This document shows positions 6,354 through 52,913 of a DNA stretch of 64,000 nt, one piece after another. Both the position numbers and the translations under genes were made by a program. The DNA is from Candidatus Micrarchaeota archaeon (GTDB lineage: Archaea; Micrarchaeota; Micrarchaeia; Anstonellales; JAGGVH01), in assembly GCA_021158105.1 (NCBI GenBank), contig JAGGVH010000038.1, forward strand, positions 11,387 to 75,386. Direction: 5' to 3'. Below the pieces are notes generated by a model. It saw nothing but the letters and a program-made list of their open reading frames with translations. It made no database searches and was not told where the DNA came from. How positions within the stretch are numbered: position 1 is the first letter of the stretch; the number at the start of each line of letters is the position of its first letter.

Positions 6354-7625
6354 ATGACAAATATAAAGTTTTATTTATTATTTATATTTTCTTTTTTTAT
6401 ACTGATAAACATCTCATCTGCAACCAGTGGGACAACAGTCAACATGTGGTTATACTATGCGATTACAGTCATAATCTCACTACTCCTTGCAGGAATTTAT
6501 TATGCATTGTCACAGGTTGCACAATCTCCACAGGTTGCTGCACAGGCAAAGAACGAGTTCAAATCAGTAATTGGCACAATTATATTAGGAATTATATTGT
6601 ACACTCTAATTTTCGGGACAGATATAACATCTAAAATCATTGGCGGCAGCAGTGATGCAACACTTTGGACTACTGTTCATAACAATGTAGGTTACCAATT
6701 TAACATCTTACAAAAAGGGTTCAGACAATTGCACAGAGGATATTATTTAATAGGCAAGATTGTAGGGTATTCGTACACTGCTACAATTTCATTGCCTTCA
6801 CTTGCAACAAAGTTTGAGTCTGGAATGCCGGGAATAGGATTGAGTACAATCTATGGTCAGTATGGCCAGATTTTCCAAACACTTTCACAAGGCATGCTGT
6901 TCATCATAGGAGAACTTGTCATAATAAAGTTTGCAATATTTGCAGTGCCACTGTTCATATTTCCATTAGGCCTAATCCTCAGATTATTTTCGCCAACACG
7001 AAGATGGGGGTCAACAGTGATTGCATTAGGTATTGGAATGTATTTCATATTACCGTTCAGTGCAGTATTTAACTCGTTGATATACAGGTCATTGGAGGGT
7101 GTTGAACCTGTTGACGGTGCAATTGATGAGATGAATCAGAACATAATGAGCGTTATGCCGATTGATAAACAACCACCGAACAGGTGGCTTATATGTTCAC
7201 CGGTTGTTGTGCCGTTTGCAGCACTCGGTCATTTAGGATTTAGAGCAGCGATAGTATGTGGCCCATTATGTACAATAGAACATGCTGCTGACTTAGGAGC
7301 AGGTTGGTTACCATGTTATATTGGATGCGTTTCTGGGGGAACACCAGAATCTGAATTTTCAGATTTTCTATACTACGTTGCACAACCCGGATATCAATGG
7401 GGATTATCGGGTCCATTAAAGAATTTTATATCAATAAGTGATGCACAGGTTGAACAAATTGGGAAATCAGTGGCGAATGTAATACTTCCAGTCATTTCAT
7501 ACCAATGGATGCTTGCAATGATGTTACCAGTTTTAAATTATATAATAACGATTGGGTTTATACGGTCATTGTCAACCGCTATAGGCGGTGAGGTGTACTT
7601 TTATGGGATTACAAAGATACTTTAA
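6354..7625 (+). CDS. Member A1 of the novel 12-paralog polytopic membrane protein family (N-terminal TM + SPQVAAQAKNE motif; LPxGxxLRxFxxTRxxGG core)
   Basis: N-terminal TM followed by QSPQVAAQAKNEF. Core FPLGLILRLFSPTRRWGSTVIALGIGMYFILPF. C-terminal SLSTAIGGEVYFYGI. An A/T-rich TATA-like element lies about 30 nt upstream. Confidence 0.7.
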   Translation: MTNIKFYLLFIFSFFILINISSATSGTTVNMWLYYAITVIISLLLAGIYYALSQVAQSPQVAAQAKNEFKSVIGTIILGIILYTLIFGTDITSKIIGGSSDATLWTTVHNNVGYQFNILQKGFRQLHRGYYLIGKIVGYSYTATISLPSLATKFESGMPGIGLSTIYGQYGQIFQTLSQGMLFIIGELVIIKFAIFAVPLFIFPLGLILRLFSPTRRWGSTVIALGIGMYFILPFSAVFNSLIYRSLEGVEPVDGAIDEMNQNIMSVMPIDKQPPNRWLICSPVVVPFAALGHLGFRAAIVCGPLCTIEHAADLGAGWLPCYIGCVSGGTPESEFSDFLYYVAQPGYQWGLSGPLKNFISISDAQVEQIGKSVANVILPVISYQWMLAMMLPVLNYIITIGFIRSLSTAIGGEVYFYGITKIL

Positions 7626-8538
7626 GATCACATTACTTGTTGTCATTATGATGATAACAAATACGTTTGCATACAGTTTTAATGATATGAAATCAGACAC
7701 AATTTTATACATGGCGTTTGCAAGCATGCTTTTATTGGTTATACTTACAGGTGCATACATTATCGGAAAAGGATTAAACAATCCGCAACTCGTTGCATGG
7801 GTTAATGTTGAATGGGTGAATATAATCGTTTCAATACTCTTGGGATTGTTTGTTCTTGGGATGTTTTTAGGGATTAATCAGTTTGTTGTTGACAATTATG
7901 GTGATGACATTTACACCACATCATTCAATTATATTGACGGGCTGACTAACGAGGCGTTATCGTTTGCACAGACCGAAACCAAGAGAAGTTTGACTGACCA
8001 GTTTAAGACGACTGCATATGCATTCATCGGCACGCCGATGACTGAATCTGGCGGGTGCGGCAAGTCATACATGGCATATTTTATGGCATCTGCACAGCAC
8101 AGGGACATGGTTGTTGACCTGTTGACAACTGCAGGAATCAGTTTACAACTGCAGAAGTATGTGTTGTACGGTGGGATGTTGGTTGTGATGACGTTTGCCT
8201 TGCCCGTTGGTATAATGTTGCGCATGTTCCCAGGAATACGCAAACTTGGCAATTTCCTGATAGCTGTGGCGTTTGCAGTGGGCATAGTATTCCCGTTAAC
8301 TTATGTAGTCAACAGTGACATGCACAGGAACATATTCAGTTATTCTGGTGGGTCATGCCCTGTAACGACATTGGGAGCTGACGATGAAGTGTTTCCCAAT
8401 GATCCCGCGCATGGGTGTGTACTGTCAAGGATGGCACTGATATTTCCACAGGCGTTCTTTTTCCCGAACATTTCAATGATAATAACCGGTGCATTCGTAG
8501 CAGGACTTATGCAGGCATTGGAGGGGATTAAGGCATGA
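7588..8538 (+). CDS. Family member A2 (likely true start ATG 7603 after GGTGAGGTG)
   Basis: NNPQLVAWVNVEW motif after the first TM. Core LPVGIMLRMFPGIRKLGNFLIAVAFAVGIVFPL. Stop overlaps the next start by 4 nt. Confidence 0.65.
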   Translation: MRCTFMGLQRYFKITLLVVIMMITNTFAYSFNDMKSDTILYMAFASMLLLVILTGAYIIGKGLNNPQLVAWVNVEWVNIIVSILLGLFVLGMFLGINQFVVDNYGDDIYTTSFNYIDGLTNEALSFAQTETKRSLTDQFKTTAYAFIGTPMTESGGCGKSYMAYFMASAQHRDMVVDLLTTAGISLQLQKYVLYGGMLVVMTFALPVGIMLRMFPGIRKLGNFLIAVAFAVGIVFPLTYVVNSDMHRNIFSYSGGSCPVTTLGADDEVFPNDPAHGCVLSRMALIFPQAFFFPNISMIITGAFVAGLMQALEGIKA

Positions 8539-11441
8539 GGAAAAACTGCATGTTAAGTATTATACTTATAATAACACTCTTGACAATGTTAATGCTTGTC
8601 CATACTATGCACGCAACAGGTTATGAAATCTGCGACAATGGTATTGATGATAATGGTAACGGGGAAACTGACGAGTCAGACTGCATACCTGAAAGCATGA
8701 GCGATTATGTTAACAGGATATATTCTGAATGTCAATCAAACTGCTCATTCACTCCAGAATGTGAATACCTTGATATATGTAACTATACCCACAACCATTA
8801 TTGTGCATGGCCCGGTGAAATTGGACAAACATATACAATAACATTCGATGACGGAACTACTACAACTGTCTCAGATTGTGAGAATGATTGTACAGATGGT
8901 CATGATGATGACGGTGACGGGTTGATCGATTGTTCTGACCCGGATTGTATGGGCAGGGAATGTGATTGGTGTGTATTATATGATGATGAGACTCGGATAT
9001 ACTATGATGATGGAGGTATAGGACCTGGACTAGGAGTTGTTTATGCAGACGGTCGTAGAGTAGAAAGTCGGGTAGAAACTAGAATATGTACTGCTCCTGG
9101 CCAACGCAATAATAGTGAAAAAGGACATTGTGATGACAACTTTGATAATGATGGTGATGCATACAATCAACTGTACTACAAAGAAATTGGAACAGGATAT
9201 ATAATGATATATCCTCAATCCGCACCGGTTGACTGTGTAGACTCAGACTGTTATCTTGATCCAATTTGCTGCGGTGATCATGTTTGCAGACCGCACGAGC
9301 AATGCCCTGCAGATTGTGTTAATGAAACATGGTGTCATGATGGTGTTGACAATGACGGTGACCATTTGATTGACTGTGACGACCCTGACTGTAATTCATA
9401 CTTCTTATGCCAAGGGATACACTTTGAATGCCCAACTGGCAACTGCTCAGTTGACATGATTCATGAGATTGAACAGGGCAACCTGTTCCCGTTCAGTCCT
9501 GCGATCAACAGCATGTTAATGGACTGGAAACTTGTATCAGTAATCCTAATCATGTTAGCACTGGTCATCATTGCACTGATTTACATGGCAGGAACAACAT
9601 TCCAAAACCCGCAACTTATTGCGTTTGCAAAACATGAGCTTGGCCAGGTCATTGTGTCAGCAATCTTCTTAGCAATCATAATAGGTGTATTGTTATTATT
9701 AGAAGTTGTATCGTCATACGTCGGCGAACAGGTGTTCGGGTCAGAGTTTGTTTTCACGTCTAACATGAGCAAACATTTTACGATTGCACACATTTATATT
9801 GAGAATGTTAAGGACGTTGGTGTTACAAAGAGCATAGAACTGTTAAAAGAGAATGTTAAGCTTGGCAAACAGATGACACATAGGAAAGGATGGTCTTTGC
9901 AAACATATCCTTATATTTCATATTCCCAAGCACCTGATGCAGGATATAGAATGAAGTATGAAAGGAATAACCAGATCATGCAAGCATACTCTGGCATGAT
10001 TTCAGCATTGAGCGTCCAGGATGCAGTCCTGAGAGGGTTTGCATGGGTGATCGGCCCGTTGCTTATCATGCTTGGAATAATATTCAGGTCATTCTCGTTC
10101 ACGCGTAAGATTGGTGGCATGCTGCTCGCAGCAGGATTAGGTTTATTCTTTGTTTATCCGTTGACATACTCGCTTGCACTGTTTACTCTTGCAACAACAA
10201 TCTATGGCAATTCGCATGCCATGCCACCGCCCACTGACTGCCCAAGCGAATGCTTAATGGAGCTTCCTATTGCATACAACGGGTCAACAAAGTATTACCA
10301 AGAAGACCTGCTCAACCTAACACCGTCTGGCCATTTCTGGAACGACCCTGAAGCAAAAGAGCATATGAAGGATTTAGGATTAAAGTTCTGTGATGATAAC
10401 ATAACTGAAGGCGGATGTTGTCATAATGACATGTGCAATGATACTCAATCGTGCCCGCGGGAATGCAGGAACAAGCCTTTGATGGGCAACCAGTGCGGAT
10501 GCCCATTTGAAGGTTGCGGGAACTGTCCTGATGAATGTAAGATTGTAAGGAACATGAGCGCGTGCACAGACAGACAAACAAGGTTTGTTGAGGACTATTG
10601 CCCTCAAACATTATGCCCTGACGAGTGCAAAAAAGACATAACTGATGCAATAAACGGTAACGAAAGCGGGTGTGGGAATTGCCCGTGGATGTGCAGATGG
10701 CAAGATGATTCTACAACAGGGTGGAACATCTCAACAGACCCAATATGCAAAAATTATGCAAGTGATTGTATAGGGTGTGATGCTAAGTATAAAATGCCAA
10801 ACACAAATGTAATAGAAAAACAATGTGAAGACAACTGTACATGTCCACATTATGACAGGATATTACACGGAGATCACCCATTACCTGGCCACACAAGAAC
10901 AAATTGTGGCAGTTGTCCTGATGACTGCAAGTATGACATGCGTTTTGACCAGTGGCACTTCACATGCGAAGATGCATGCACCTACATTAACGAGACAACT
11001 GATGAAGAAGTAGTGTGTCCTGACGAGTGCAGGTTTGACGAGCAATACATGGCACCTGAATGTTTTGATAATGATTCAATAATCAAAGCATGTGAAAACT
11101 GTCCAAAGTATTGCAAGGTTATGGAAGTTAAACGAACACCGTGCTCAGCATGCATACAATGCAACAATGACTGCACACGAAAACCTGCAGTGCGCACTGA
11201 CTGTGCAGGGTCATGCTTAGCATATGAGGGCGAGTTTACATTAAACCCAGCAGTCCTGGTCAAAGACCTTAGCAAGGTTGCTGCTGACGGCGACCCTGAC
11301 CTGCAGGCAGCAGGGGTATTGATGGTGCCGGCATACATATTACCATTGTTTAATGTTATTTTAACATTAGCATTCATACGAGGGTTCTCCAAATATCTTG
11401 GTGGTGATTATGAAATCCCTGGGATTGAAAAGGTCATCTAA
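8535..11441 (+). CDS. Family member A3 fused to two large Cys-rich ectodomains (968 aa)
   Basis: Signal peptide. N-terminal domain with CxDGxDDDGDGLIDCSDPDC-type Asp/Cys repeats. Then TM + FQNPQLIAFAKHELGQ, core LGIIFRSFSFTRKIGGMLLAAGLGLFFVYPL, a second Cys-rich domain (CPDEC/CGNCP repeats) and a C-terminal TM + FIRGFSKYLGGDYE. Confidence 0.7.
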   Translation: MRKNCMLSIILIITLLTMLMLVHTMHATGYEICDNGIDDNGNGETDESDCIPESMSDYVNRIYSECQSNCSFTPECEYLDICNYTHNHYCAWPGEIGQTYTITFDDGTTTTVSDCENDCTDGHDDDGDGLIDCSDPDCMGRECDWCVLYDDETRIYYDDGGIGPGLGVVYADGRRVESRVETRICTAPGQRNNSEKGHCDDNFDNDGDAYNQLYYKEIGTGYIMIYPQSAPVDCVDSDCYLDPICCGDHVCRPHEQCPADCVNETWCHDGVDNDGDHLIDCDDPDCNSYFLCQGIHFECPTGNCSVDMIHEIEQGNLFPFSPAINSMLMDWKLVSVILIMLALVIIALIYMAGTTFQNPQLIAFAKHELGQVIVSAIFLAIIIGVLLLLEVVSSYVGEQVFGSEFVFTSNMSKHFTIAHIYIENVKDVGVTKSIELLKENVKLGKQMTHRKGWSLQTYPYISYSQAPDAGYRMKYERNNQIMQAYSGMISALSVQDAVLRGFAWVIGPLLIMLGIIFRSFSFTRKIGGMLLAAGLGLFFVYPLTYSLALFTLATTIYGNSHAMPPPTDCPSECLMELPIAYNGSTKYYQEDLLNLTPSGHFWNDPEAKEHMKDLGLKFCDDNITEGGCCHNDMCNDTQSCPRECRNKPLMGNQCGCPFEGCGNCPDECKIVRNMSACTDRQTRFVEDYCPQTLCPDECKKDITDAINGNESGCGNCPWMCRWQDDSTTGWNISTDPICKNYASDCIGCDAKYKMPNTNVIEKQCEDNCTCPHYDRILHGDHPLPGHTRTNCGSCPDDCKYDMRFDQWHFTCEDACTYINETTDEEVVCPDECRFDEQYMAPECFDNDSIIKACENCPKYCKVMEVKRTPCSACIQCNNDCTRKPAVRTDCAGSCLAYEGEFTLNPAVLVKDLSKVAADGDPDLQAAGVLMVPAYILPLFNVILTLAFIRGFSKYLGGDYEIPGIEKVI

Positions 11442-12513
11442 CATTAAACCTATAATAATGTTTATGCTGATTGTGACCAGTGTTAGCTTTGCAAGTTTTT
11501 GGGATTTATTCTTCTTCCCTATAAACAATTGGATGTTAGTGTCAACCATTGCAGTGTTATTATCAGGAGTGCTCTTAGCACTCACATACATGGTCGCACA
11601 ACTTATGAACAACCCTTATATGACAGCAGCAGTCAAGAATGAGCTTGTGCAATGGGCGATAACATCTTTCATTGTCATGGCGTTTGTTATAATACTTCCG
11701 TCCTTGCTGATGATAGTTGCTTCAGGAAGTTTATCTTTTGGACAGGAGTATACTCCACCAACTGGGTTAAGTGGTGAAGAAGTTGGACCGTCAGGTGTAC
11801 TTGTAACATATGTCCAATACGCTGCAGTAAACATAATCAATCAGACAACCGATAACCTCAAAAAATTAGCCAACAGTCTTGACCGTAGGATTCAAGAGGT
11901 CAGTGAACAATCTGCGATGACAGGAATATGCAACTTTTGGCAGGTAGGGTTTTCAATGAGTTTCTGTGGTGCGCTCGGTGCATTGCAAGGCCCGTTGACC
12001 AACGGGTTTAATGTTGTCAACATGGGAATCGCAGAACTTGAAATGTTAAAGGTGCTGGTTGTGATGGGTGGCAACATTGGACTGCTTATCCTGTTCCCTG
12101 CAGGCATAATCCTGCGAACATTTTCAATGACGCGCAAAACTGGCGGGATATTGATTGCATTGGGTTTGGCGCTCGGGATAATCTTACCATTGAGCGTAAT
12201 ATTCTTAAGGTTTACAGTTGACCAATACTATGCACATTACGGTGGGACTAGAATGTATCATGTCCCATATTTTTATGAACATGATGATGACACATGCGAC
12301 GAATTCTCTACAAACTATGACAAACACATGAAGGTTCCCATATATAGATATACTGATGAAGGTTTTCTGCTTAATGTGGCAGAACCGTTCATCTTAGAAT
12401 CTGTAATAATAACACTGGGCTCATTGTTTTTCACATTAACATTCATTACTTCAATGGGTGCACTGTTTGGTATGCCTGTTGACGTATCAGGACTTGTGAG
12501 GTTAGTGCAATGA
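11398..12513 (+). CDS. Family member A4 (likely start ATG 11410 after GGTGGTGA)
   Basis: NNPYMTAAVKNELVQW. Core FPAGIILRTFSMTRKTGGILIALGLALGIILPL. C-terminal LFGMPVDVSGLVRLV. Confidence 0.65.
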   Translation: MVVIMKSLGLKRSSNIKPIIMFMLIVTSVSFASFWDLFFFPINNWMLVSTIAVLLSGVLLALTYMVAQLMNNPYMTAAVKNELVQWAITSFIVMAFVIILPSLLMIVASGSLSFGQEYTPPTGLSGEEVGPSGVLVTYVQYAAVNIINQTTDNLKKLANSLDRRIQEVSEQSAMTGICNFWQVGFSMSFCGALGALQGPLTNGFNVVNMGIAELEMLKVLVVMGGNIGLLILFPAGIILRTFSMTRKTGGILIALGLALGIILPLSVIFLRFTVDQYYAHYGGTRMYHVPYFYEHDDDTCDEFSTNYDKHMKVPIYRYTDEGFLLNVAEPFILESVIITLGSLFFTLTFITSMGALFGMPVDVSGLVRLVQ

Positions 12514-13646: not shown

Positions 13647-13648
13647 AA

Positions 13649-43690: not shown

Positions 43691-43895
43691 TTCACCTATC
43701 TTTTCAAATGCTTTTCAAACAATGATTTATTTGAAGTACCAAGTTTACAGAACCAAATCATAAAAATATAAGTTGGGAACACAAATATTTAAACCTTTCT
43801 AAAAATTAAAAATGGAAATTAAATTTATACGAACTCTTTTTGCAATCCATCATACAACCAAAACTTTTTAAACATCAAAATAGAATATATTAAAC

Positions 43896-45069: not shown

Positions 45070-45603
45070 TTAATCCATGTTAGTCAAATTCCTGCAATAC
45101 TCCTGCTGTGTCATCCTATCTGCTGAATCCCCAAAAATCATCTTCATAACTTCCTGGTCCGTGTCTGCATAATAATTCTCAACATAATCGCAATAATTAG
45201 AATCATTGGTTTCAGTTGCCAAAAATATAAAGCACTCATTTTTAGATTCTTTATTCTTGATATTACTGCACAGGTTTACAACCTCGGCATAATTATTGCT
45301 GCTTACAGACTGTAACGCCAAATATCTATATATTGCCGATGAAAATAAACATTCATCCCTCCCAAAAGAAGTGCTGATTTTATCACAAACATCAATAACT
45401 TCAATATAAGTGTGGGAAGTGCTCCGCGCCATTGTGTATGCCACAGTCAGGTAACATTCATCTTTGTTTAAATCATTATCTAAATGCCCGCACTGGCTAG
45501 GGTCTGATAATTGATGAAGATGAACACAACCTGTAAACATTAATAATACTAATAGTATAGCAAAACCTATCACACCAATATCACATCTTAATTTTCTTTT
45601 CAT
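45070..45603 (-). CDS. Small Cys-rich lipoprotein-like secreted protein with 3 (D/N)ECxxxxA repeats
   Basis: Signal with FTGC lipobox-like motif. Repeats KDECYLTVAY / RDECLFSSAIY / KNECFIFLATE. Its start abuts the stop of the upstream family gene. Confidence 0.5.
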   Translation of the reverse strand: MKRKLRCDIGVIGFAILLVLLMFTGCVHLHQLSDPSQCGHLDNDLNKDECYLTVAYTMARSTSHTYIEVIDVCDKISTSFGRDECLFSSAIYRYLALQSVSSNNYAEVVNLCSNIKNKESKNECFIFLATETNDSNYCDYVENYYADTDQEVMKMIFGDSADRMTQQEYCRNLTNMD

Positions 45604-46761
45604 TTATATCACCTTTGCCAACCCTCTGGCAATCTCAGTAAGGTCAGCACCCAGCAACAATCCTGCTGAACGTATAAACGTATACAGGCCTGTAAGTGCA
45701 ACAACTGGATAAATCAAAGTGCGGTATATCCACACCACAAACATGTTTGTTGTGATATAAGATATAACTGTCTTAAACAATTTAAACAGACTACCATACT
45801 GCCCCATTATTAAAGAAATATCATCCTTGTCTATCCTGCAATCCTCTGTAATCTCAGTCATCAACCTCACAACCTGCTGATACGACCCAGACTTTTCAAT
45901 ATTTTTATAAAATGCATTCAAAAGGTTTGAAGGATAGATGCCTTCCATTATCACAAAAACATAAACATAAATCGTATGGATAACAAACCCTAATCCCAAC
46001 CCAAACGCCACCAACATCGCACCTGCACCCCTGGTGTTTGGAAACATACGCAACACTATACCCAAGGGTAGTAAGAACGATGCAATGCATGGACCGTATA
46101 ACATCAATTCCATAAACAAATATTGTGTAAATATGATTGTATCAATCTTATCCATAATAAACTCTGTAAATGTCAAAAGCGGAAGACCTATTCTTCCTGA
46201 GAAAAATCCTTTGGGCTTACCGCTATTTTTCACTATGGACGTTTCAGATGCAACTTTTATAGGATAATATACAGTATTAAAAACCTTGTACATGTTCGCC
46301 ATAGTATGCACAGTATCCTTTACAAGAAGCACAGAATAACTGTTAACTGAACTGATATTGTATAATTTAGAATATTTAGGATTGTTGGCTTCTGCATTAG
46401 GTATCACAGTCCCTTCAACATAACCAAACACAGTCGCTGAATCGGGCCATGTGCCGACTGTCACGCCCAACCCAGAGTCATGGGCATAATCTTCGATATC
46501 AAAATCCAATTCTTTAATCACAGTGCCACTTTCAATCATGTGTGATATTGTCAGCACTCTCCCGCCAACTGCCAAAATTTCTATGAACGAAATAAGTATT
46601 ATAACTATCAACACTGTTGAAAACACATCGGCTAAGAACCCCTTTGCTTTAAACTCCAACTCAGATGACTTGAAAAACTTTGCCAACAGATACAATAACA
46701 CTGAAACAATCAATCCAGTCATCATAGAAATTACTACCAACAACATCCAATCATTGAACAT
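45604..46761 (-). CDS. Family member B6
   Basis: Core LPLGIVLRMFPNTRGAGAMLVAFGLGLGFV. C-terminal LLLGADLTEIARGL. Confidence 0.65.
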   Translation of the reverse strand: MFNDWMLLVVISMMTGLIVSVLLYLLAKFFKSSELEFKAKGFLADVFSTVLIVIILISFIEILAVGGRVLTISHMIESGTVIKELDFDIEDYAHDSGLGVTVGTWPDSATVFGYVEGTVIPNAEANNPKYSKLYNISSVNSYSVLLVKDTVHTMANMYKVFNTVYYPIKVASETSIVKNSGKPKGFFSGRIGLPLLTFTEFIMDKIDTIIFTQYLFMELMLYGPCIASFLLPLGIVLRMFPNTRGAGAMLVAFGLGLGFVIHTIYVYVFVIMEGIYPSNLLNAFYKNIEKSGSYQQVVRLMTEITEDCRIDKDDISLIMGQYGSLFKLFKTVISYITTNMFVVWIYRTLIYPVVALTGLYTFIRSAGLLLGADLTEIARGLAKVI

Positions 46762-46773
46762 TCATACCACCAT

Positions 46774-47895
46774 CTATATCATCCGGGTGAGGTTTGCAAC
46801 ATTTAAACTTTCGCCTAATATTCCAGAGATTGTTGTGCTGATGCTTGAAAGGATTAAGATATTAAGCACCGGCAGTAACACACCCCCAATGAATAATGAG
46901 CCGATTATCCCAATCAAGAATACTATATAGAAAAATACTGACAATAATATTGAAATCAAAACTGCATAGTGCAAACCCTTGTCCAACTTTATAAGCACAT
47001 CTGCTATTTTCATTACTCTGCCAGTACCAATATGGCCTTGGAGCCAATGTGCAATGGTTGGGTTTTTCATGGCAGACATTGCAATCTTATTACCACTTAG
47101 CGCCATCCATGACAATACAACAGAACCCGATGCAAGAGTTGCAGGGCCAAGATAATTCTCAGGCATGATTGTCTTCATTATCAACCCGTCCAACATCAAC
47201 AATAGAGGATAAAATATTGATAATGTCAAAACTGCCCCGATGATTGCACCGCCGATAGTCCTTGTTGGCGCGAACGACCTGAACAGAAAACCTATTGGTA
47301 AGAACACCCCAACCATCGGAGACCATGAGAAGTAAAGGATAAATATCTGTGTCATGGCAGAAAGCAACATTACGACAATACTCATCGCACCCAGCCCTAT
47401 AAACAAGTCAACAAATGACTTGACACCGCCGAACGGTGAGAGTGAATTAGTTTCAATGTTGACGTTAGTTCCTGCCACACCACCGGCGGTTGAGTATGTT
47501 ATTGTTGTGACAACAAACATGTCAGATGACCATGTCAAGAACTTTTTAAGGTATGCCATTCCAAAATCAAACGGTGAAACACAATCTGATGTGCCGCAAT
47601 AATAACTCTCATAGTTGCCATCTGCACCAGGCAATGAATCCATCATAGGACCTAAATCAAACCCACACATCCCGGAATATAACATTAAGATAACAATGAA
47701 CAAACCGGTTGTGAAAAACATCTGCATGATCTCATGAGACACCCGCGATGAAAGTTTAGAATTATTCATTATCTTTGACAAGAAATAAATAAACGCATAT
47801 ATCGCAGTACTTATAATCAATATTATAAATGTGTATAATGCCCATTGACCAAACGGCGCACCGCCAGAACATACAGTTTCCATTGTCGTAAACAT
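46774..47895 (-). CDS. Family member B5
   Basis: Core LPIGFLFRSFAPTRTIGGAIIGAVLTLSIFYPL. C-terminal ISGILGESLNVANL. Confidence 0.65.
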   Translation of the reverse strand: MFTTMETVCSGGAPFGQWALYTFIILIISTAIYAFIYFLSKIMNNSKLSSRVSHEIMQMFFTTGLFIVILMLYSGMCGFDLGPMMDSLPGADGNYESYYCGTSDCVSPFDFGMAYLKKFLTWSSDMFVVTTITYSTAGGVAGTNVNIETNSLSPFGGVKSFVDLFIGLGAMSIVVMLLSAMTQIFILYFSWSPMVGVFLPIGFLFRSFAPTRTIGGAIIGAVLTLSIFYPLLLMLDGLIMKTIMPENYLGPATLASGSVVLSWMALSGNKIAMSAMKNPTIAHWLQGHIGTGRVMKIADVLIKLDKGLHYAVLISILLSVFFYIVFLIGIIGSLFIGGVLLPVLNILILSSISTTISGILGESLNVANLTRMI

Positions 47896-47909
47896 TCAAT
47901 CACCAAAAA

Positions 47910-49307
47910 TCATATCAAACTTACCAATGACGCAAAAGATATTTCAGACCCTAAGAACCGTGAAATGTCCTTTGCAGCTGTCAATGTCACAGTAATATTA
48001 ACCAAAGGCAGTATTATACTTATAATCAACAGGAATGAGACCATGCGCGACATGAACAGTTCAAGTATATGGGCAAACATACCAATTATAAGGGTTGCAG
48101 ACATGATAGGTAGTATAATCTTTAATATTTTGTTAAGGATGTATGCTGCTCCTGCAACCTCATTCGTTGGGACAGGTGAGCCGCCAGAAAGTATACTCTG
48201 CGCTACCGAACTTGCAAAATTAACCCCTACGATTGCTATTATATCACGTGCGAACGATGCCACAAGATTAAGCAGAAACACAGAAGAATACGGTGGAAGA
48301 ATATTGAGTGCAATACTTTTTTTCGTAAAGAATTGTGAAAGAATTTTTAATATCTTAAACCCAGATGCATTGATTATTGCATTGCCATAGTTGACCATCT
48401 GTTTAAAACTGGCATGGAACCAGTCATTAACTATTAATGCATTCATGTATAACATTGCAGGATAGATAAAATACAATGATAACGATAGTGCTATGATCGC
48501 CCCGCCTGCCTTGCGCGTCACAGAAAAATTGCGCATTATCAACCCAAACGGAAGGAACAATTCAATCAATAATGTTGATATGAACTGTATAAACGATGCC
48601 TTGACAACCCATTCTGCCATACCAAGTGCATATGCCTGTATCAATTTACCAAAATACCCTTCCAAAACCATGTAAAAGTTGTTTATATTCAAATCAAACT
48701 GGACAAACCCAAAAGGGATGGCTGGCAGTTCAAGTGTTGACGCCAAATGAACAACAGACTGCATAATTGCCAATGATACAGTATCTACAAGCATAGAATT
48801 CCGAACTGATAATGTATAATAACACGCTGCCTGTTGCAATGTGCACGGTGAATCCAAACCATGAACAGACTGGATTACTTTGGCAATTTGTGGATTGATA
48901 AGCCCTAATAAAAATACAATAAAAAGTATCAGAAATATGTTTGCAATGATTTGATACAACTCCTTTTTCATCCATGCACTAACTGAAGGGTCATTAAAGA
49001 ACATTCTTCCAAAATAAAATAATACTCCTATCACAACACTCAATACTGCTGCAACTGCGATCGGCAGGAACCATCTGCTGCCGATCCCGGGCTGCTCACC
49101 GGGTCCTATACCCGGCGGGTCACACCCCACATTCCCTGACCAGTCAGTAATATTAGTGAAATTCATTATCATTGAAGATTGGTCTTCAGGTGTGGCACCG
49201 AGAAAGTCTGATATAAAAGAACTATGAACATTCATAATAAACAATAACAAAATGAAAAGCATGCACATTTTCAACATCCTTAATTGTTTCCGTCCCATAC
49301 ATACCAC
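47910..49307 (-). CDS. Family member B4
   Basis: FNDPSVSAWMKKELYQ. Core LPFGLIMRNFSVTRKAGGAIIALSLSLYFIYPA. C-terminal SRFLGSEISFASL. Confidence 0.65.
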   Translation of the reverse strand: MVCMGRKQLRMLKMCMLFILLLFIMNVHSSFISDFLGATPEDQSSMIMNFTNITDWSGNVGCDPPGIGPGEQPGIGSRWFLPIAVAAVLSVVIGVLFYFGRMFFNDPSVSAWMKKELYQIIANIFLILFIVFLLGLINPQIAKVIQSVHGLDSPCTLQQAACYYTLSVRNSMLVDTVSLAIMQSVVHLASTLELPAIPFGFVQFDLNINNFYMVLEGYFGKLIQAYALGMAEWVVKASFIQFISTLLIELFLPFGLIMRNFSVTRKAGGAIIALSLSLYFIYPAMLYMNALIVNDWFHASFKQMVNYGNAIINASGFKILKILSQFFTKKSIALNILPPYSSVFLLNLVASFARDIIAIVGVNFASSVAQSILSGGSPVPTNEVAGAAYILNKILKIILPIMSATLIIGMFAHILELFMSRMVSFLLIISIILPLVNITVTLTAAKDISRFLGSEISFASLVSLI

Positions 49308-49343
49308 ACTACTAATTTATAGCTAACATTTTATATGAAGATA

Positions 49344-50648
49344 TTATAGAAAGTGTGACAACCCAACAATCTTTGATTCGCCTCCCAAGATATATGAAAA
49401 ATACTTAATCGACGCCACCACTGCATACAATGACAATATTGGTGTTACTATTATATACATAGATAATCGCGCTGCCATGTGCTCCCAGCCACCATAATTA
49501 ACCATGAACGCTCCTATGCCTTTAAACATAGCAGCATCAATGAACGTGCGGAGCACAACATACCACATAACATCAATATAAAACTTAAACGTAAGCAATA
49601 CTACAAACCAAAACAAATTAACAACAAAACCTATGACAGTAGTTATTTTATCCCACAACCATTCAAAAACAGTTTCGGCACCAGTATCATTAACACTTTG
49701 TATTGTGTTATCAAACCTTCCAAATATCTGCAATGCACTCTTATAACTATCCAAATTTGTTAGGTCATTATAAAATACCTTACCCTCATCATTGGTTGTG
49801 AGGTATTTGGGATGGTCTGGATAATAAAAAAAGTGATAGTTTATCATATAAAACAACGGACCTATCAAAAACAATGCCAATGCCAATGCTGCAATAAACC
49901 CACCCAATCTTCGTGTTATATAAAAGTTACGCAATACCATGCCCAACACTAAGAACAAAGGAAATATGACTTGTGAAATTAAATCTAAAGCAAAATACTG
50001 TAAAATTACAATGACATATCCAGTCATAAGGATATCAAACAATTCCTGCATCTGTGCAATAAGTATTGTAAACCCTGCACCGGGATAACTTTTCCAACCA
50101 TACTGGTATGTCCCGAGCTGGATGTATGATTCCCTAAAAACCTTATACAAACTACCCTGGTAGAACACATATGATAATGAATCGCCCGCAAGACCCGCAA
50201 TGTCGTGAAGATTGCGCAGTGCTAAACACACATGGACTGGATAATAAACATATTTCTTGCCAGTGTCGCCTGCATATTCCTTTGTAATCAAACATGTATG
50301 ATTGACACTGTTCCATACTGCACCATGGGTCCAACCATCAGAAATATTATTATAAAGAAGAGTGTTTGCAGCATCGGCTTCTGGAAAAAACATTATGACT
50401 GAATTTTCTATCAACCCGTCTGGACCTAACAATATACCCAATGAAAAGAATATCAACCAGAAAAGTAATATGTTCATAAATGCCTGTCCAATCTCCTTTT
50501 TTGCAAACGCCTCCCACTTTGTATGCTTTAAAATGAGAGAAATAAAGTAAACTATAACAGTAATCGCAAGCGAAATGACAGTGCCAATAACCATTAATAA
50601 CGGCACATTGCCCCAATCAAACATATTCCACGGTTCAAACATTACCAC
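49344..50648 (-). CDS. Family member B3
   Basis: KHTKWEAFAKKEIGQ. Core VLGMVLRNFYITRRLGGFIAALALALFLIGPL. C-terminal FSYILGGESKIVGL. Confidence 0.65.
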   Translation of the reverse strand: MVMFEPWNMFDWGNVPLLMVIGTVISLAITVIVYFISLILKHTKWEAFAKKEIGQAFMNILLFWLIFFSLGILLGPDGLIENSVIMFFPEADAANTLLYNNISDGWTHGAVWNSVNHTCLITKEYAGDTGKKYVYYPVHVCLALRNLHDIAGLAGDSLSYVFYQGSLYKVFRESYIQLGTYQYGWKSYPGAGFTILIAQMQELFDILMTGYVIVILQYFALDLISQVIFPLFLVLGMVLRNFYITRRLGGFIAALALALFLIGPLFYMINYHFFYYPDHPKYLTTNDEGKVFYNDLTNLDSYKSALQIFGRFDNTIQSVNDTGAETVFEWLWDKITTVIGFVVNLFWFVVLLTFKFYIDVMWYVVLRTFIDAAMFKGIGAFMVNYGGWEHMAARLSMYIIVTPILSLYAVVASIKYFSYILGGESKIVGLSHFL

Positions 50649-50657
50649 ACCTTTTGA

Positions 50658-51611
50658 TTATACAAACGATTCAAACCATTTTGTAAACGCATTGATTGAT
50701 GTTGTTGTGACGATTATTGAAAACGTTGGGATGACAACGCCTTGAAATCCTATTATAGTAAACCATACTAAAACCTTATAAAACATATAAAAATATAAAT
50801 GAAACAACTTGTTAAGCCCGGGAATAAAATTTAATACGAGATACATCAAATCCCCCGGTGTTCCCCAAACATTGACAACTGATAAAATACTGGTATCAGA
50901 TATATCTTTAATTTGGTTATATATCACGCCACTTGAAATGATATTGGTCATTATATAACCATTTAATGCATACATTGATATAAAAATTACGTATGATGAC
51001 AAGCCAAGGGCAACCATAAAACTGCCAGCCCTGCGCGTCAGGTCAAAAAAACGCAATATCAATCCTGACGATATAAGGTATGGATAGAATGACATTATCG
51101 TCATGATAACCAACAACTGGACGTATAAACTGCCAAGGAGTGGCGAGATAAACATTATCATATAATTGATTAACCTGTCATACAACGTAAAATCCAATAT
51201 TGCCCCTGTGATGACTGACCCGACTGCAAAGGATACTATTGACTTCAAACTCTGGACAAGGCCAAGCAGACCTATCAACGTATTCAACAACAAAGGAACC
51301 TGATGAAAGATTAATGATGAAAGATAATTGTACACATAATCCTCAATCACTGGTGGTGATGATGGATTAATCATAAAAGAAATCAATCCCGGCGATACCC
51401 CTCTAACACCCATGAATATCATGATAAACAGCAGTATAAACCCAAACAGTAAAGAATTCATTATCGCAGTATGGAGGCGAACCTTTGCCATTGCGATGAG
51501 CTGAGGATTTTTTGTCATATTGCCCCAGTAATGTTCAATGACTGTATAACTAAGATAAATCATCAGTGCAACCACAAATATTATACTCGCCACCAGCATA
51601 CAACACACCAA
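50658..51611 (-). CDS. Family member B2
   Basis: TKNPQLIAMAKVRLHT. Core SSGLILRFFDLTRRAGSFMVALGLSSYVIF. Confidence 0.6.
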   Translation of the reverse strand: MVCCMLVASIIFVVALMIYLSYTVIEHYWGNMTKNPQLIAMAKVRLHTAIMNSLLFGFILLFIMIFMGVRGVSPGLISFMINPSSPPVIEDYVYNYLSSLIFHQVPLLLNTLIGLLGLVQSLKSIVSFAVGSVITGAILDFTLYDRLINYMIMFISPLLGSLYVQLLVIMTIMSFYPYLISSGLILRFFDLTRRAGSFMVALGLSSYVIFISMYALNGYIMTNIISSGVIYNQIKDISDTSILSVVNVWGTPGDLMYLVLNFIPGLNKLFHLYFYMFYKVLVWFTIIGFQGVVIPTFSIIVTTTSINAFTKWFESFV

Positions 51612-52913
51612 TTAAACTTTTATGAACATCCTTCTCATTCTGCCAAATCCCAACAACCCTTCCTCACCACCGATCGCAAGGGAAATGTCTTTCATTGAAG
51701 TCAAGAAAATCATCACGTCTAAAATGAATAATAATAATGCAAGCCCGAACTTCTCAGCATACACAGTATATGATGTCAACAATGTTTTTATGTACGCATC
51801 CATTGAATTCCCAAGCCCTACCTTAAACAATGGCACAAAGAAAAATGAAGCAACCTTGACAAGTGCTTTTATTACATCAATCCCGCCTGCAAAATCTTTA
51901 AGTACATCTGATATACTATCCATTGCATAAACCAATCCCACACCTTGGGGTGTTGTTGATAAAATCTCCTCAAAATCGTGGAGCAATTTAGCATGGTTGG
52001 GTTGAGGGGGATTATTATAACTATCATAACCTATCCCGCCAGTATTGGGCCGTTCAGAACTCTCAGACACTGTTTTCAAATCATTTATTATATTCTTAGC
52101 ATCATTAATGTCATCATCTGACGGCATCTTCTGGTTCATCATATTTTTTGTGTATACCGAATAATCACCCAACATATAATCCGGACCAACTATTGCACTT
52201 ATGGGTTCGCCCCAAACATAATTATCAAGCACCATACTGTTTAGGATTAACAACAACGGATATATAAAAAAACCACAGATCGCAAACGCTATAACAGTCG
52301 ACCCTGTCTTTCGTGTTATGGGAAACGCACGCAACACTACTCCTAAAGGTATGAGATATCTCCACGAAAACACTCTAAAAAAGGTTAACAGCTGCTGTTG
52401 AAAATCTATCAATAGTATTCCAGACAAAGAAAGCAAAGAATACTTTTGAAGAAAAGTTAACAGGAATGAAAACCCTGCCAATGGTGAAACATGGTATATT
52501 AAAAAGTAAAAGCCTGTCCCGCTGAACATCCCAAAATAAAAGAGCGTTATCAAGCTTACCAAGAAGAAATTATAAAAATAATGGTGTAGCGAAACAAGAT
52601 AGATGCGTGCATAAGTAAAATAAAAAGGAGCGAGAATATTACCGCCCGTAGCTGGAAACCCGAACGCTGCACGGATGATAATATCAATGAATACTACTGC
52701 AGAACCCAACAACCCAATTATGAAAATGGTTTTTAATACCTCGCCCAGCTCAGTTATCGCCCACCCTTTCATCTCTGGATAATTGAGAAGCGAAGAAATC
52801 ATGTATGCAAGTGCAACACCAATAACACTAATCATAATGCCTACAAGTATCGCCACAACTGCAAACCCTGATATTATTGGCGTGTTGCCAAGAACCGCAT
52901 AACTTATATCCAA
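51612..52913 (-). CDS. Family member B1
   Basis: NYPEMKGWAITELGE. Core IPLGVVLRAFPITRKTGSTVIAFAICGFFIYPL. C-terminal ISLAIGGEEGLLGF. First gene of the minus-strand array. Confidence 0.65.
   Translation of the reverse strand: MDISYAVLGNTPIISGFAVVAILVGIMISVIGVALAYMISSLLNYPEMKGWAITELGEVLKTIFIIGLLGSAVVFIDIIIRAAFGFPATGGNILAPFYFTYARIYLVSLHHYFYNFFLVSLITLFYFGMFSGTGFYFLIYHVSPLAGFSFLLTFLQKYSLLSLSGILLIDFQQQLLTFFRVFSWRYLIPLGVVLRAFPITRKTGSTVIAFAICGFFIYPLLLILNSMVLDNYVWGEPISAIVGPDYMLGDYSVYTKNMMNQKMPSDDDINDAKNIINDLKTVSESSERPNTGGIGYDSYNNPPQPNHAKLLHDFEEILSTTPQGVGLVYAMDSISDVLKDFAGGIDVIKALVKVASFFFVPLFKVGLGNSMDAYIKTLLTSYTVYAEKFGLALLLFILDVMIFLTSMKDISLAIGGEEGLLGFGRMRRMFIKV

What the first reader, a model, noticed from the sequence alone, without database searches (positions are those of the whole stretch)
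6354..52913. Twelve paralogous polytopic membrane proteins in two six-gene arrays share three signature motifs; candidate novel envelope-channel family
All twelve ORFs share the same architecture. These are 6354, 7588, 8535, 11398, 12510 and 13649 on the + strand, and 51612, 50658, 49344, 47910, 46774 and 45604 on the - strand. Each has (i) an N-terminal TM followed directly by an N-P-Q-[LVM]-x-A-[WFM]-A-K-x-E-like motif, (ii) a hypervariable middle region, (iii) a TM segment carrying L-P-x-G-[IL]-[IVM]-L-R-x-F-x-x-T-R-x-x-G-[GS]-x-[LI]-I-A-x-x-[LI]-G-[LM]-x-F-[IV]-[YF]-P, and (iv) a C-terminal [FI]-x-R-x-x-S-x-x-[LI]-G-G-E-like tail. The motifs are visible directly in the translations, for example FPLGLILRLFSPTRRWGSTVIALGIGMYF, LPAGIILRTFSMTRKTGGILIALGLALGII and LPFGLIMRNFSVTRKAGGAIIALSLSLYFIYP. 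Genes within each array are translationally coupled by 4-nt overlaps. Member 8535..11441 is the same fold with two large Cys-rich ectodomains inserted. I do not recognise these motifs as any named Pfam signature. The nearest organisational analogy is the tandem, size-variable VirB6 paralog arrays of Rickettsiales rvh type IV secretion systems, but that is analogy only, with no homology shown.
Basis: seen in the sequence. Interest (0 to 1): 0.88.

Follow-up and report, generated by a model that had tools for sequence, protein, structure and literature searches.

The report
Six-paralog membrane arrays of archaeal secretion-like machine
Two sets of six related membrane-protein genes in a tiny symbiotic archaeon (Micrarchaeota) belong to a large, unnamed protein family that sits where the channel protein sits in conjugation-like (type IV secretion/Ced-like) gene clusters, so they probably build the membrane core of a cell-to-cell transfer machine not yet described for these organisms.

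Summary
Twelve ORFs at the stated coordinates are paralogs of about 20% identity with the described motifs. None matches Pfam, NCBIfam or PDB sequences. The 4-nt overlap claim holds at only 2 of 10 junctions, and the position-2 genes lack the C-terminal motif.

The window is a chromosomal contig of a Candidatus Micrarchaeota MAG. A profile of the twelve finds about 3,100 clusters (50% identity) in public data, almost all from Micrarchaeota.

In other genomes the family is either single-copy or a six-gene array. The single-copy form is flanked by a VirB2/TrbC-like pilin, a 2-TM protein and a CedB/HerA-like ATPase. All six arrays whose two ends are visible have six genes. Gene position is conserved across genomes, so the six are old, ordered subfamilies.

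One MAG has pilins, six paralogs, 2-TM proteins, ATPase and a coiled-coil protein in one operon. In the window, array A leads through two giant envelope proteins to the same 2-TM/ATPase/coiled-coil module.

Topology is 5 TM, N-out, C-in, with a large outside loop, like VirB6/CedA. Homology to VirB6 or CedA was tested and not detected.

Best reading: the membrane platform or channel of a Ced/Ted-like, T4SS-derived apparatus, possibly hetero-hexameric. It is a new variant of a known kind.

The parts
6354..7625 (+). Array A, position 1 (423 aa): signal-like N-terminus, 5-TM family member
   Evidence: NCBI locus tag J7J90_03415, annotated 'hypothetical protein'. The N-terminal hairpin (residues 22-85) weakly matches the pilin HMM (domain iE 0.003) and NF045849 pilin-like model (E 0.0067).
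7588..8538 (+). Array A, position 2 (316 aa by longest ORF; likely start at 7603 or 7648): short subfamily without the GGE tail
8535..11441 (+). Array A, position 3 (968 aa): family core with two Cys-rich ectodomain insertions, one N-terminal and one in the TM4-TM5 loop
   Evidence: True 4-nt overlap with the upstream gene.
11398..12513 (+). Array A, position 4 (371 aa by longest ORF; alternative starts at 11410 and 11458)
12510..13646 (+). Array A, position 5 (378 aa)
   Evidence: True 4-nt overlap.
13649..14746 (+). Array A, position 6 (365 aa; the 361-aa database entry P0001 starts at the ATG at 13661). This is the member modelled with AlphaFold2.
14755..18639 (+). 1294-aa Cys-rich (65 Cys) lipoprotein-like secreted giant directly after position 6
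   Evidence: Homologs lie directly downstream of arrays in L013, L056, L104, L103 and L092. No Pfam or PDB match.
18576..23645 (+). 1689-aa giant: signal peptide, ~150-aa ectodomain, a TM at 190-208, further hydrophobic segments at 365-394, then a long K/E-rich, predicted cytoplasmic region
   Evidence: Weak homologs next to arrays in L039, L099 and L061.
23650..24450 (+). 266-aa protein with two N-terminal TM helices and a soluble domain. It is the conserved partner gene immediately upstream of the ATPase. A VirB3/VirB4-N-terminal-like role is only a guess.
   Evidence: No family or fold match.
24484..26016 (+). 510-aa P-loop ATPase of the HerA/VirB4/CedB clade (Walker A GVTGAGKS, Walker B IVADEAW)
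   Evidence: Pfam DUF87 9e-18 and AAA_10 1.9e-12. NCBIfam best hits: CedB 1.6e-24, VirB4-like CD1110 3.2e-19, CedD 1e-18, all far below the curated cut-offs. Best PDB hit is HerA at 6e-13.
25973..26761 (+). 262-aa K/E-rich coiled-coil protein, conserved downstream of the ATPase. A C-terminal winged-helix-like segment is my own reading of the sequence.
51612..52913 (-). Array B, position 1 (433 aa)
50658..51611 (-). Array B, position 2 (317 aa): short subfamily without the GGE tail
49344..50648 (-). Array B, position 3 (434 aa)
47910..49307 (-). Array B, position 4 (465 aa)
46774..47895 (-). Array B, position 5 (373 aa)
45604..46761 (-). Array B, position 6 (385 aa)
45070..45603 (-). 177-aa Cys-rich lipoprotein-like protein abutting array B position 6
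37931..43690 (-). 1919-aa bitopic giant with the same architecture as 18576..23645: signal peptide, ectodomain, TM at 166-184, long K/E-rich region
35374..37911 (-). 845-aa Cys-rich lipoprotein-like secreted protein. It shares a short 'HGCYAxxCE' motif with the 1294-aa protein.
   Evidence: Not detectably homologous otherwise.

Best explanation
The twelve ORFs are two complete sets of six ordered paralogs (positions p1-p6). They belong to a large, unannotated family of 5-TM membrane proteins centred on Micrarchaeota. The family occupies the VirB6/CedA position in chromosomal, T4SS-derived (Ced/Ted-like) gene clusters.

The inferred topology is N-terminus outside, C-terminus inside. TM1, a short cytoplasmic loop (NPQxxAWAKxE) and TM2 form a pilin-like hairpin. 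A variable helical ectodomain of about 100-130 aa follows. TM3, the invariant basic cytoplasmic loop (LRxFxxTRKxGG) and TM4 come next. Then comes a hypervariable outside loop that is the hotspot for Cys-rich insertions, then TM5 and a cytoplasmic LGGE tail.

I propose that the six paralogs assemble, most simply one copy each, into the membrane platform or channel of a cell-surface conduit. The CedB/HerA-like hexameric ATPase at 24484..26016 and its 2-TM partner at 23650..24450 would dock on the conserved cytoplasmic loops. The variable ectodomains, together with the adjacent giant Cys-rich secreted proteins and bitopic giants, would form the extracellular part that crosses the envelope and contacts the host cell.

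Shown: the family, its motifs, six-fold position-specific orthology, and genomic linkage to pilins and the ATPase. Inferred: topology, channel or platform role, hetero-hexamer, substrate (DNA or other macromolecules) and direction of transport.
For: Family and motifs.

Organism and chromosomal setting: the contig is from a Candidatus Micrarchaeota archaeon, and the arrays are flanked by PheRS-beta, Cdc6, FEN1, HMG-CoA reductase and IleRS-type genes.

ATPase: HerA/VirB4/CedB clade.

Context elsewhere:
- The single-copy member P0006 sits between a TrbC/VirB2-like gene and a 240-aa homolog of the window's 266-aa protein. A CedB-like ATPase and a second 726-aa ATPase follow.
- 25 of 43 single-copy loci show the pilin and 27 of 43 show the ATPase within an 8-kb block.
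- The small proteins are VirB2-like. 16 of 19 hit PF18895 T4SS_pilin and 9 of 19 hit PF04956 TrbC. The top PDB hit of their profile is the R388 pilin TrwL, in the right register, at a non-significant E 0.048.
- Arrays are directly followed by the 266-like gene, the ATPase and the 262-like gene in many MAGs.
- One contig has 2 pilins, exactly 6 family genes, 2 copies of the 266-like gene, the ATPase and the 262-like gene in one strand-contiguous block. Another has 6 family genes with the window's array-A size pattern followed by a 266-like gene.

Six-ness: all six arrays with both ends visible have six genes (window A and B, L001, L078, and the two merged contigs). No intact array has more.

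Position-specific orthology: in the best-hit matrix the same-position cell is by far the largest in every row (145-240, against at most 54 for any other position).

Topology: hydropathy; AF2 model with pLDDT 78.6 and pTM 0.74, whose long helices are consistent with TM2/TM3 extending beyond the membrane; loop 3 carries 1-3 K+R (2-3 in 11 of the 12) and no acidic residue in 11 of 12; disulfide-rich insertions occur only at the predicted outside positions.

Link between pilin and the N-terminal hairpin, as reported for CedA/CedA1 and VirB6/VirB2 (PMC9905601):
- Some array members carry two bona fide pilin domains fused in front of the core (iE down to 4e-12).
- The family HMM N-terminus recognises these domains at iE about 1e-6.
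- The pilin HMM hits the family's own hairpin in 5 of 414 members, with 0 hits on reversed-sequence decoys.
Against: - No detectable sequence or profile homology to VirB6/TrbL. hhalign against a TrwI profile gives probability below 1%. None of 81 members hits PF04610. PDB profile searches at E<=10 return no VirB6 chain.
- No match to the NCBIfam CedA/CedE models, apart from one hit at E 0.0045 (P0017). None appeared among the 46 members scanned, so after multiple testing this is chance level.
- hhalign of the pilin profile against the family profile is not significant (E 0.019, probability 2.4%).
- No separate pilin gene was found in the window. Only 2 of 74 array loci show a separate pilin within 1.5 kb, although the 8-kb blocks hide most flanks.
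- Array B has no ATPase of its own.
- By PDB sequence the ATPase is closer to HerA than to VirB4.
- Nothing here shows transport, a substrate or the oligomeric state.
Confidence: 0.6

Rival explanations
1. The arrays encode a Micrarchaeota-specific envelope scaffold. It would anchor or export the adjacent giant Cys-rich surface proteins (adhesins or an S-layer-like coat) and would not be a translocation channel. The linkage to the ATPase would then reflect assembly or secretion of surface proteins, not a T4SS-like conduit.
For: Each window array is followed by lipoprotein-like Cys-rich proteins and a bitopic giant. Homologs of the 1294-aa protein follow arrays in five other loci. The ectodomains are hypervariable and often Cys-rich. 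No homology to VirB6/CedA was found.
Against: Many arrays, and all single-copy clusters, lack the giants but keep the pilin, 266-like and ATPase genes. VirB2-like pilins and pilin-domain fusions point to a T4SS-type apparatus. The most conserved parts of the family are the cytoplasmic loops and TM helices, not the surface parts.
Confidence: 0.2
2. The tandem copies are a diversification cassette: redundant, fast-evolving surface-exposed paralogs used for antigenic or host-range variation. The proteins would act singly or as homo-oligomers, as has been discussed for the Rickettsiales VirB6 paralogs.
For: The middle and TM4-TM5 loops are hypervariable. The window holds two deeply diverged arrays. 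Sizes vary from 316 to 968 aa.
Against: Position-specific orthology holds across genomes. The number is fixed at six in every complete array. Size patterns are conserved by position: p2 is short, and p3 often carries the Cys-rich insertion. These features indicate six non-redundant subunits rather than interchangeable copies.
Confidence: 0.08
3. The family is a small-molecule or lipid transporter/permease, for example an ABC-exporter-like membrane domain, unrelated to secretion machines.
For: Profile searches against PDB sequences give a weak hit to an ABC exporter transmembrane region (E 5.4e-4 with A3, 7e-3 with A2) over the TM4-TM5 stretch.
Confidence: 0.04

Closest known systems
Ced/Ted DNA-import systems of Crenarchaeota (CedA/CedE or TedA channel, CedA1/TedC pilin, CedB/CedD or TedB ATPase)
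   Same: - Chromosomal, minimal T4SS-derived gene set: VirB2-like pilin, polytopic membrane protein and HerA/VirB4-clade ATPase.
- CedB is the best NCBIfam match of the window ATPase.
- CedA and CedE are 5-6-TM proteins, and CedA's N-terminus is pilin-like (PMC9905601, PMC11868833). The family likewise has a pilin-like N-terminal hairpin, and some members carry fused pilin domains.
- CedA and CedE are paralogs that may form a hetero-oligomer (PMC11868833). This is a two-paralog precedent for the six here.
   Different: - No detectable sequence similarity to the CedA/CedE models.
- Six ordered paralogs instead of one or two.
- The host lineage is DPANN (Micrarchaeota).
- Extra conserved partners: the 266-aa 2-TM protein, the 262-aa coiled-coil protein, and giant Cys-rich and bitopic proteins.
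- No UV or DNA-repair context is known.
Bacterial VirB6/TrbL (PF04610), e.g. TrwI of R388
   Same: - Polytopic inner-membrane protein with about 5 TM, N-out/C-in, and a large extracytoplasmic loop after TM2. The VirB6 topology is from my own knowledge of the literature.
- Encoded between the pilin and VirB4-type ATPase genes.
- Proposed base of the translocation channel and pilus assembly platform.
   Different: Sequence, profile and fold comparisons are negative. VirB6 forms a homo-pentamer in the R388 structure (my recollection of PMC9259494, not re-read here). No VirB5, VirB7, VirB8, VirB9 or VirB10 equivalents were recognised here.
Tandem VirB6 paralog arrays of Rickettsiales rvh T4SS (RvhB6a-e; Anaplasma VirB6-1..4)
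   Same: Tandem, size-variable paralogs of the channel component, some with very large extensions, in obligate host-associated organisms with reduced genomes (titles and abstracts of PMC2653234 and PMC7648143).
   Different: Different domain of life and no sequence relation. The number here is fixed at six, with position-specific orthology across a phylum. Insertions are Cys-rich ectodomains in a defined loop.
Chromosomal T4SS of Patescibacteria/CPR (MPF-FATA-like)
   Same: Ultrasmall episymbionts that encode a chromosomal, non-plasmid T4SS with VirB4, VirB2-like pilins, VirB3/PrgI and VirB6. The genes are reported as essential for epibiotic growth (PMC12102498). This is a functional and ecological parallel to a DPANN lineage.
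   Different: Bacterial, with recognisable VirB6/PrgH and VirB4 profiles. No six-paralog arrays are reported.

Membership tests
VirB6/TrbL (Pfam PF04610) | Significant sequence or profile match to PF04610 or to a bona fide VirB6 such as TrwI | tested here: not met
   The window paralogs and 81 family members have no PF04610 hit, even at E<=10. hhalign of a TrwI-family profile (21 sequences, narrow) against the family profiles gives probability 0.6-0.7%. Family profiles searched against all PDB sequences return no VirB6 chain at E<=10.
VirB6/TrbL (Pfam PF04610) | Fold similarity to a solved VirB6 | tested here: inconclusive
VirB6/TrbL (Pfam PF04610) | Polytopic (about 5 TM), N-out/C-in topology with a large extracytoplasmic loop after TM2 | tested here: met
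   Hydropathy profiles. AF2 helices at 43-72, 76-115, 182-231, 234-260 and 310-342. Basic loop 3 with 1-3 K+R (2-3 in 11 of 12) and no acidic residue in 11 of 12. Cys-rich insertions only at the predicted outside positions. The topology is inferred, not measured.
VirB6/TrbL (Pfam PF04610) | Encoded with a VirB2-type pilin and a VirB4-type ATPase | tested here: met
   Single-copy clusters. Pilin identity. An operon with pilins, six family genes and the ATPase. In the window the ATPase module is present downstream of array A, but no separate pilin gene was found.
CedA/CedE/TedA (archaeal Ced/Ted channel proteins) | Match to the NCBIfam CedA/CedE models, or profile homology to CedA/TedA | tested here: not met
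   One weak CedE hit (P0017, E 0.0045). None in the 12 window paralogs or the 34 single-copy members. This is chance level after multiple testing. A profile-profile test against CedA/TedA alignments could not be run because no seed sequences were obtainable.
CedA/CedE/TedA (archaeal Ced/Ted channel proteins) | N-terminal TM hairpin homologous to the cognate VirB2-like pilin (PMC9905601) | tested here: inconclusive
   For: 17 extra pilin-HMM domains fused N-terminal of the core in family members (iE down to 4e-12); the family HMM N-terminus hits these at about 1e-6; the pilin HMM hits the family's own hairpin in 5 of 414 members with 0 decoy hits. Against: hhalign of pilin against family gives E 0.019 and probability 2.4%.
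CedA/CedE/TedA (archaeal Ced/Ted channel proteins) | Required for DNA import or export between cells | not testable with these tools
   Needs genetics in a cultivated Micrarchaeon-host system.
Type IV secretion system (as a system) | VirB4-family signature ATPase | tested here: inconclusive
   The ATPase has Pfam DUF87 and AAA_10. Its best NCBIfam matches are CedB, VirB4-like CD1110, CedD and VirB4_plasma, but all are far below the curated cut-offs. The best PDB sequence hits are HerA helicases. No phylogeny was made.
Type IV secretion system (as a system) | VirB2/TrbC-type pilin | tested here: met
   In related loci, not in the window. 16 of 19 small proteins hit PF18895 and 9 of 19 hit PF04956; for the one member whose row is shown, the TrbC score is just below gathering (25.9 vs 27.9 bits). 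The top PDB hit of their profile is TrwL at a non-significant E 0.048.

The most novel reading that the evidence does not exclude
The six ordered paralogs form a hetero-hexameric, VirB6-like ring matched to the six-fold ATPase. Their ectodomains, together with the giant Cys-rich and bitopic proteins, build the intercellular bridge through which Micrarchaeota (DPANN) cells exchange DNA, lipids or proteins with their hosts. That would be the molecular identity of the DPANN-host connection and an archaeal counterpart of the Patescibacteria T4SS. The window's organism would carry two such machines with different surface specificities.
Probability: 0.25. Interest if true: 0.9.

Novelty: new variant of a known kind. 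Interest (0 to 1): 0.72.

Why it matters
DPANN archaea depend on host cells, yet the machinery of contact and exchange is largely unidentified. This finding defines a very large, un-named protein family (about 3,100 clusters at 50% identity) that is a hallmark of Micrarchaeota. It ties that family by conserved gene order to VirB2-like pilins and a CedB/VirB4-like ATPase.

That gives a concrete, testable candidate for a T4SS-derived conduit in DPANN. It parallels the T4SS that Patescibacteria need for epibiotic growth and the Ced/Ted DNA importers of Crenarchaeota.

The fixed, ordered six-paralog array is unusual for any T4SS-type channel protein. It makes a specific structural prediction, a hetero-hexamer, that AF-multimer, cryo-ET or pull-downs can test. 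It also supplies seed alignments for a new Pfam/NCBIfam model that would annotate thousands of 'hypothetical proteins'.

Tried and rejected
- **Family libraries.** Pfam and NCBIfam scans of the 12 paralogs, 10 distant representatives, 34 single-copy members and 81 mixed members found no family. The single CedE hit (E 0.0045) and the two Mbov_0395 pilin-like hits (E 0.0067) are too weak to count.
- **PDB sequence searches** with three family profiles gave only a weak, hydrophobic match to an ABC-exporter TM region. I rejected it as compositional.
- **hhalign.** Against a TrwI/VirB6 profile the result was negative, but that profile was narrow (>=50% identity). Pilin against family was not significant.
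- **Locus searches.** The search for related loci with the 12-paralog alignment failed because no stretch was conserved enough. I used a degenerate DNA motif instead.
- **Viral contigs.** The motif scan gave one chance match (no HMM hit, GC 58%). The family is not seen on IMG/VR contigs.
- **Giant proteins.** No Pfam or PDB matches, no internal repeats and no BLAST similarity to each other.
- **Literature.** Searches found no paper describing this family or a T4SS-like system in Micrarchaeota/DPANN. The library is incomplete, so prior description elsewhere cannot be excluded.

Full report
**1. The observation**

ORF listing reproduces all twelve ORFs at the stated coordinates. Six lie on the + strand (6354-14746) and six on the - strand (52913-45604).

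A multiple alignment shows 19-23% pairwise identity.
- a TM helix followed by NPQxxAWAKxE;
- a poorly conserved middle region;
- the core LPxGxxLRxFxxTRxxGGxLIA...YP;
- a C-terminal LGGE tail.

The position-2 gene of each array lacks that tail.

Only two of the ten intra-array junctions (8535 and 12510) are true ATGA overlaps. The rest are 0-36 nt apart, or depend on the start codon chosen.

The 968-aa member carries 72 cysteines in an N-terminal insertion and a TM4-TM5 insertion. One of the twelve, presumably this member, matches the NCBIfam acidic double-disulfide repeat model.

**2. More than chance, and not a named family**

A profile of the twelve finds 3,100 cluster representatives (50% identity clusters) at E<=1e-3 among 1.84 billion proteins, and 2,530 at E<=1e-10.

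In 156 of the retrieved homologs the core reads P-x5-G-[IVL][VIL]-L-R-[TS]-F-x-x-T-R-[KR]-x-G-G-x-L-I-A-...-P. G, R, F, T, R, G, G, A and P are 84-100% conserved.

Pfam, NCBIfam and PDB-sequence searches with single members and with profiles give no family.

**3. Whose genome**

The proteins are identical to 'hypothetical proteins' J7J90_03415 onwards of a Candidatus Micrarchaeota archaeon MAG, on a 90.5-kb contig.

The window is chromosomal. PheRS-beta, rRNA/tRNA methyltransferases, HMG-CoA reductase, Cdc6, FEN1, an M17 aminopeptidase, a class I aminoacyl-tRNA synthetase (IleRS-type domain set) and phosphoglycerate mutase surround and separate the arrays. There are no tRNA genes, and no Pfam integrase or transposase domain was found in the ORFs scanned.

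Nearly all titles are Micrarchaeota, Micrarchaeia, Anstonellales, Bilamarchaeaceae, Fermentimicrarchaeum or 'ainarchaeum', plus two 'Marsarchaeota' bins. One match, in an Acetobacteraceae contig, has no family HMM hit and is probably chance. A MAG labelled only 'bacterium' (L029) does carry a four-gene array, so that label is probably a mis-assignment.

The same motif found only one match, a chance one, in 2.9 million viral contigs.

**4. Context in the window**

Array A is followed on the same strand by five genes:
- a 1294-aa Cys-rich lipoprotein-like protein;
- a 1689-aa protein with a signal peptide, a small ectodomain, a TM at 190-208, further hydrophobic segments at 365-394 and a long K/E-rich region;
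- a 266-aa protein with two TM helices;
- a 510-aa P-loop ATPase;
- a 262-aa coiled-coil protein.

The ATPase has Pfam DUF87/AAA_10. Its best NCBIfam matches are CedB (1.6e-24), VirB4-like CD1110, CedD and VirB4_plasma, then HerA. All are far below the curated cut-offs. PDB sequences give HerA as the best match.

Array B is followed by a 177-aa Cys-rich lipoprotein, a 1919-aa bitopic giant built like the 1689-aa protein, and an 845-aa Cys-rich lipoprotein-like protein. It has no ATPase of its own. The two blocks converge on a stretch of housekeeping genes.

**5. Context elsewhere: the key evidence**

*Single-copy form.* A distant single-copy member (P0006) lies in a cluster that reads: TrbC/VirB2-like 126-aa protein, family member, 240-aa protein (homolog of the window's 266-aa protein), CedB-like ATPase, small proteins, and a second 726-aa HerA/VirB4/TraD-like ATPase.

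*Family census in the fetched loci.* I scanned the 120-odd fetched loci with a family HMM. The family occurs either as one ~350-aa gene or as tandem arrays. Among single-copy loci, 25 of 43 show the pilin and 27 of 43 show the ATPase within the 8-kb block.

*The small proteins are VirB2-like.* 16 of 19 hit PF18895 and 9 of 19 hit PF04956. The best PDB hit of their profile is the R388 pilin TrwL, though at a non-significant E of 0.048.

*Arrays and the ATPase module.* Arrays are often directly followed by the 266-like gene (one or two copies), the ATPase and the 262-like gene.

*Merged contigs.* The genome loci are fixed 8-kb blocks, so I joined adjacent blocks.
- A Micrarchaeia MAG contig has, on one strand, two pilins, exactly six family genes, two 266-like genes, the ATPase and the 262-like gene.
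- Another contig has six family genes of 428, 407, 978, 409, 354 and 392 aa, close to the window's array A pattern. They are followed by a 266-like gene.

**6. Six ordered subfamilies**

Every array whose two ends are visible has six genes: window A and B, L001, L078 and the two merged contigs. Fifteen further blocks show six with one end cut. No intact array has more.

I ran an all-against-all comparison of 19 arrays. The best hit of a gene in another array is overwhelmingly at the same position: 145-240 for the same position, against at most 54 for any other position.

The two window arrays are deeply diverged from each other. Each is closer to arrays in other genomes: L013 to A and L001 to B. 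So these are six ancient, non-redundant subfamilies in fixed order, present here in two versions. They are not recent tandem duplicates.

**7. Anatomy and topology**

Three lines of evidence agree on N-out/C-in with five TM helices:
- hydropathy;
- the AF2 model of position 6 (pLDDT 78.6, pTM 0.74; helices 43-72, 76-115, 131-165, 182-231, 234-260, 310-342, 350-360);
- the charge of the invariant loop (1-3 K+R, 2-3 in 11 of the 12, and no acidic residue in 11 of 12).

On this reading the NPQ...AKxE and LRxFxxTRKxGG loops and the LGGE tail are cytoplasmic. The helix lengths are consistent with TM2 and TM3 continuing into a helical bundle outside the membrane.

The distance from the N-terminus to the core is tightly conserved (median 234 aa). 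The distance from the core to the C-terminus ranges from 136 to more than 1,000 aa. All 71 representatives longer than 600 aa have more than 20 cysteines. The TM4-TM5 loop is therefore the insertion hotspot for disulfide-rich ectodomains.

This is the topology described for VirB6 (my own knowledge) and for the 5-6-TM CedA/CedE proteins (PMC11868833).

**8. The pilin link**

Beltran et al. reported that the N-terminus of CedA is homologous to the CedA1 pilin, and likewise for VirB6 and VirB2 (PMC9905601).

Here, several 520-550-aa array members carry two bona fide VirB2-like domains fused in front of the family core (domain iE down to 4e-12). The N-terminal part of the family HMM recognises those domains at about 1e-6.

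The pilin HMM also hits the family's own hairpin in 5 of 414 members, with no hits on reversed decoys.

hhalign of the two profiles aligns TM1-loop-TM2 in register but is not significant. I count this as suggestive only.

**9. Membership tests that failed**

- hhalign of a TrwI/VirB6 profile against the family gives probability below 1%.
- There is no PF04610 hit in 81 members.
- There are no CedA/CedE hits beyond one at chance level.

The family therefore cannot be filed as VirB6/TrbL or CedA. The claim is that it works in their place.

**10. Mechanism proposed**

The six paralogs form the membrane platform or channel, most simply a hetero-hexamer matching a hexameric ATPase. They would present the conserved cytoplasmic loops to the CedB-like ATPase and its 2-TM partner.

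The variable ectodomains, the Cys-rich secreted proteins and the bitopic giants would build the extracellular part. Pilins, separate or fused, would assemble on it where present.

The substrate (DNA as in Ced/Ted, or other macromolecules as in effector T4SSs) and the direction of transport are unknown.

Confidence is about 0.6 for 'membrane core of a T4SS-derived apparatus' and roughly 0.3 for the hetero-hexamer.

**11. Rivals**

- A surface-protein anchoring or export scaffold (0.2).
- A diversification cassette (0.08). Position-specific orthology and the fixed number six argue against it.
- A transporter or permease (0.04). It rests only on a weak hydrophobic PDB hit.

**12. Novelty and literature**

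Full-text searches found Ced/Ted papers, a T4SS nomenclature review and the Patescibacteria T4SS paper. They found nothing describing this family or a T4SS-like system in Micrarchaeota/DPANN. The library is incomplete.

I rate the finding as a new variant of a known kind: a Ced/Ted-like, T4SS-derived system with an unrecognised channel-position family expanded into a fixed six-paralog array. Interest is 0.72.

Noticed in passing
window 18576-23645 (+) and 37931-43690 (-): Two giant proteins (1689 and 1919 aa), one after each array, share an architecture but have no detectable sequence similarity to each other. Each has a signal peptide, a 150-190-aa ectodomain rich in N-X-S/T sites, a TM helix, and then a long K/E-rich, predicted cytoplasmic region of more than 1,000 aa. 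This recalls the membrane protein with an Smc-like domain noted in Sulfolobus conjugative plasmids (PMC12857230).
   Followed up: partly
window 14755-18639 (+), 35374-37911 (-), 45070-45603 (-): Three Cys-rich, lipoprotein-like secreted proteins (65, 28 and 10 Cys; lipobox-like LGCG, NGCV and TGCV). The 1294- and 845-aa proteins share a short 'HGCYA(M/Y)(V/I)CE' motif near the N-terminus but are otherwise not detectably homologous. There are no Pfam or PDB matches. Homologs of the 1294-aa protein follow arrays in five other MAGs.
   Followed up: partly
loci L053:5460-7058, L115:6501-8000, L122:5222-6871, L057:5387-7003, L023:3957-5612, L117:5812-7374: Some array members carry two tandem VirB2-like pilin domains fused N-terminal of the 5-TM core. 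This is a natural pilin-channel fusion.
   Followed up: yes
L030+L025 (JAVZHX010000002.1, 184001-200000), merged coordinates 2487-5636 (-): In this MAG the ATPase ORF is 1050 aa, twice the window's 510 aa. The 266-like gene is duplicated there, as it also is in L034 (Ca. Fermentimicrarchaeum limneticum) and L009.
   Followed up: no
window 43896-45065 (+): A 389-aa, very lysine-rich (16.7% K) protein with one TM helix near its C-terminal end. It is encoded on the opposite strand, inside the array-B block, between the 177-aa lipoprotein gene and the 1919-aa gene. The overlapping - strand ORF 43868-44395 looks like an antisense artefact.
   Followed up: no
window 6323-6330 and the junctions at 14746/14755 and 52913: A TTTTTAAA TATA-like box lies about 25 nt upstream of the ATG at 6354, which suggests a leaderless or short-leader transcript for array A. 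GGTGGT Shine-Dalgarno-like motifs precede the gene at 14755 and the TTG start of array B at 52913.
   Followed up: no
window 1-64000: GC skew and AT skew follow the coding strand. Cumulative GC skew peaks at about 34 kb, where the two convergent gene blocks meet. I read this as a strand-of-transcription effect rather than a replication signal.
   Followed up: no
window 3140-4378 (+) and 60167-61687 (+); L001:4176-5402: AAA_14/DUF4143-type and ATPase_2-type orphan ATPase genes lie outside both arrays. The six-gene array in L001 is also preceded by an AAA_14 gene. This may be coincidence, because these genes are common in archaea.
   Followed up: no
L071 (CAVSOP010000006.1, 24001-32000): An array that appears as eight short, overlapping family fragments. 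It is probably a frameshifted or decaying array, or carries assembly errors.
   Followed up: no
protein P0160 (RLG25809.1): One family member is deposited under 'Methanosarcinales archaeon' and two arrays under 'Marsarchaeota' bins. These are either mis-binned contigs or occurrences outside Micrarchaeota.
   Followed up: no
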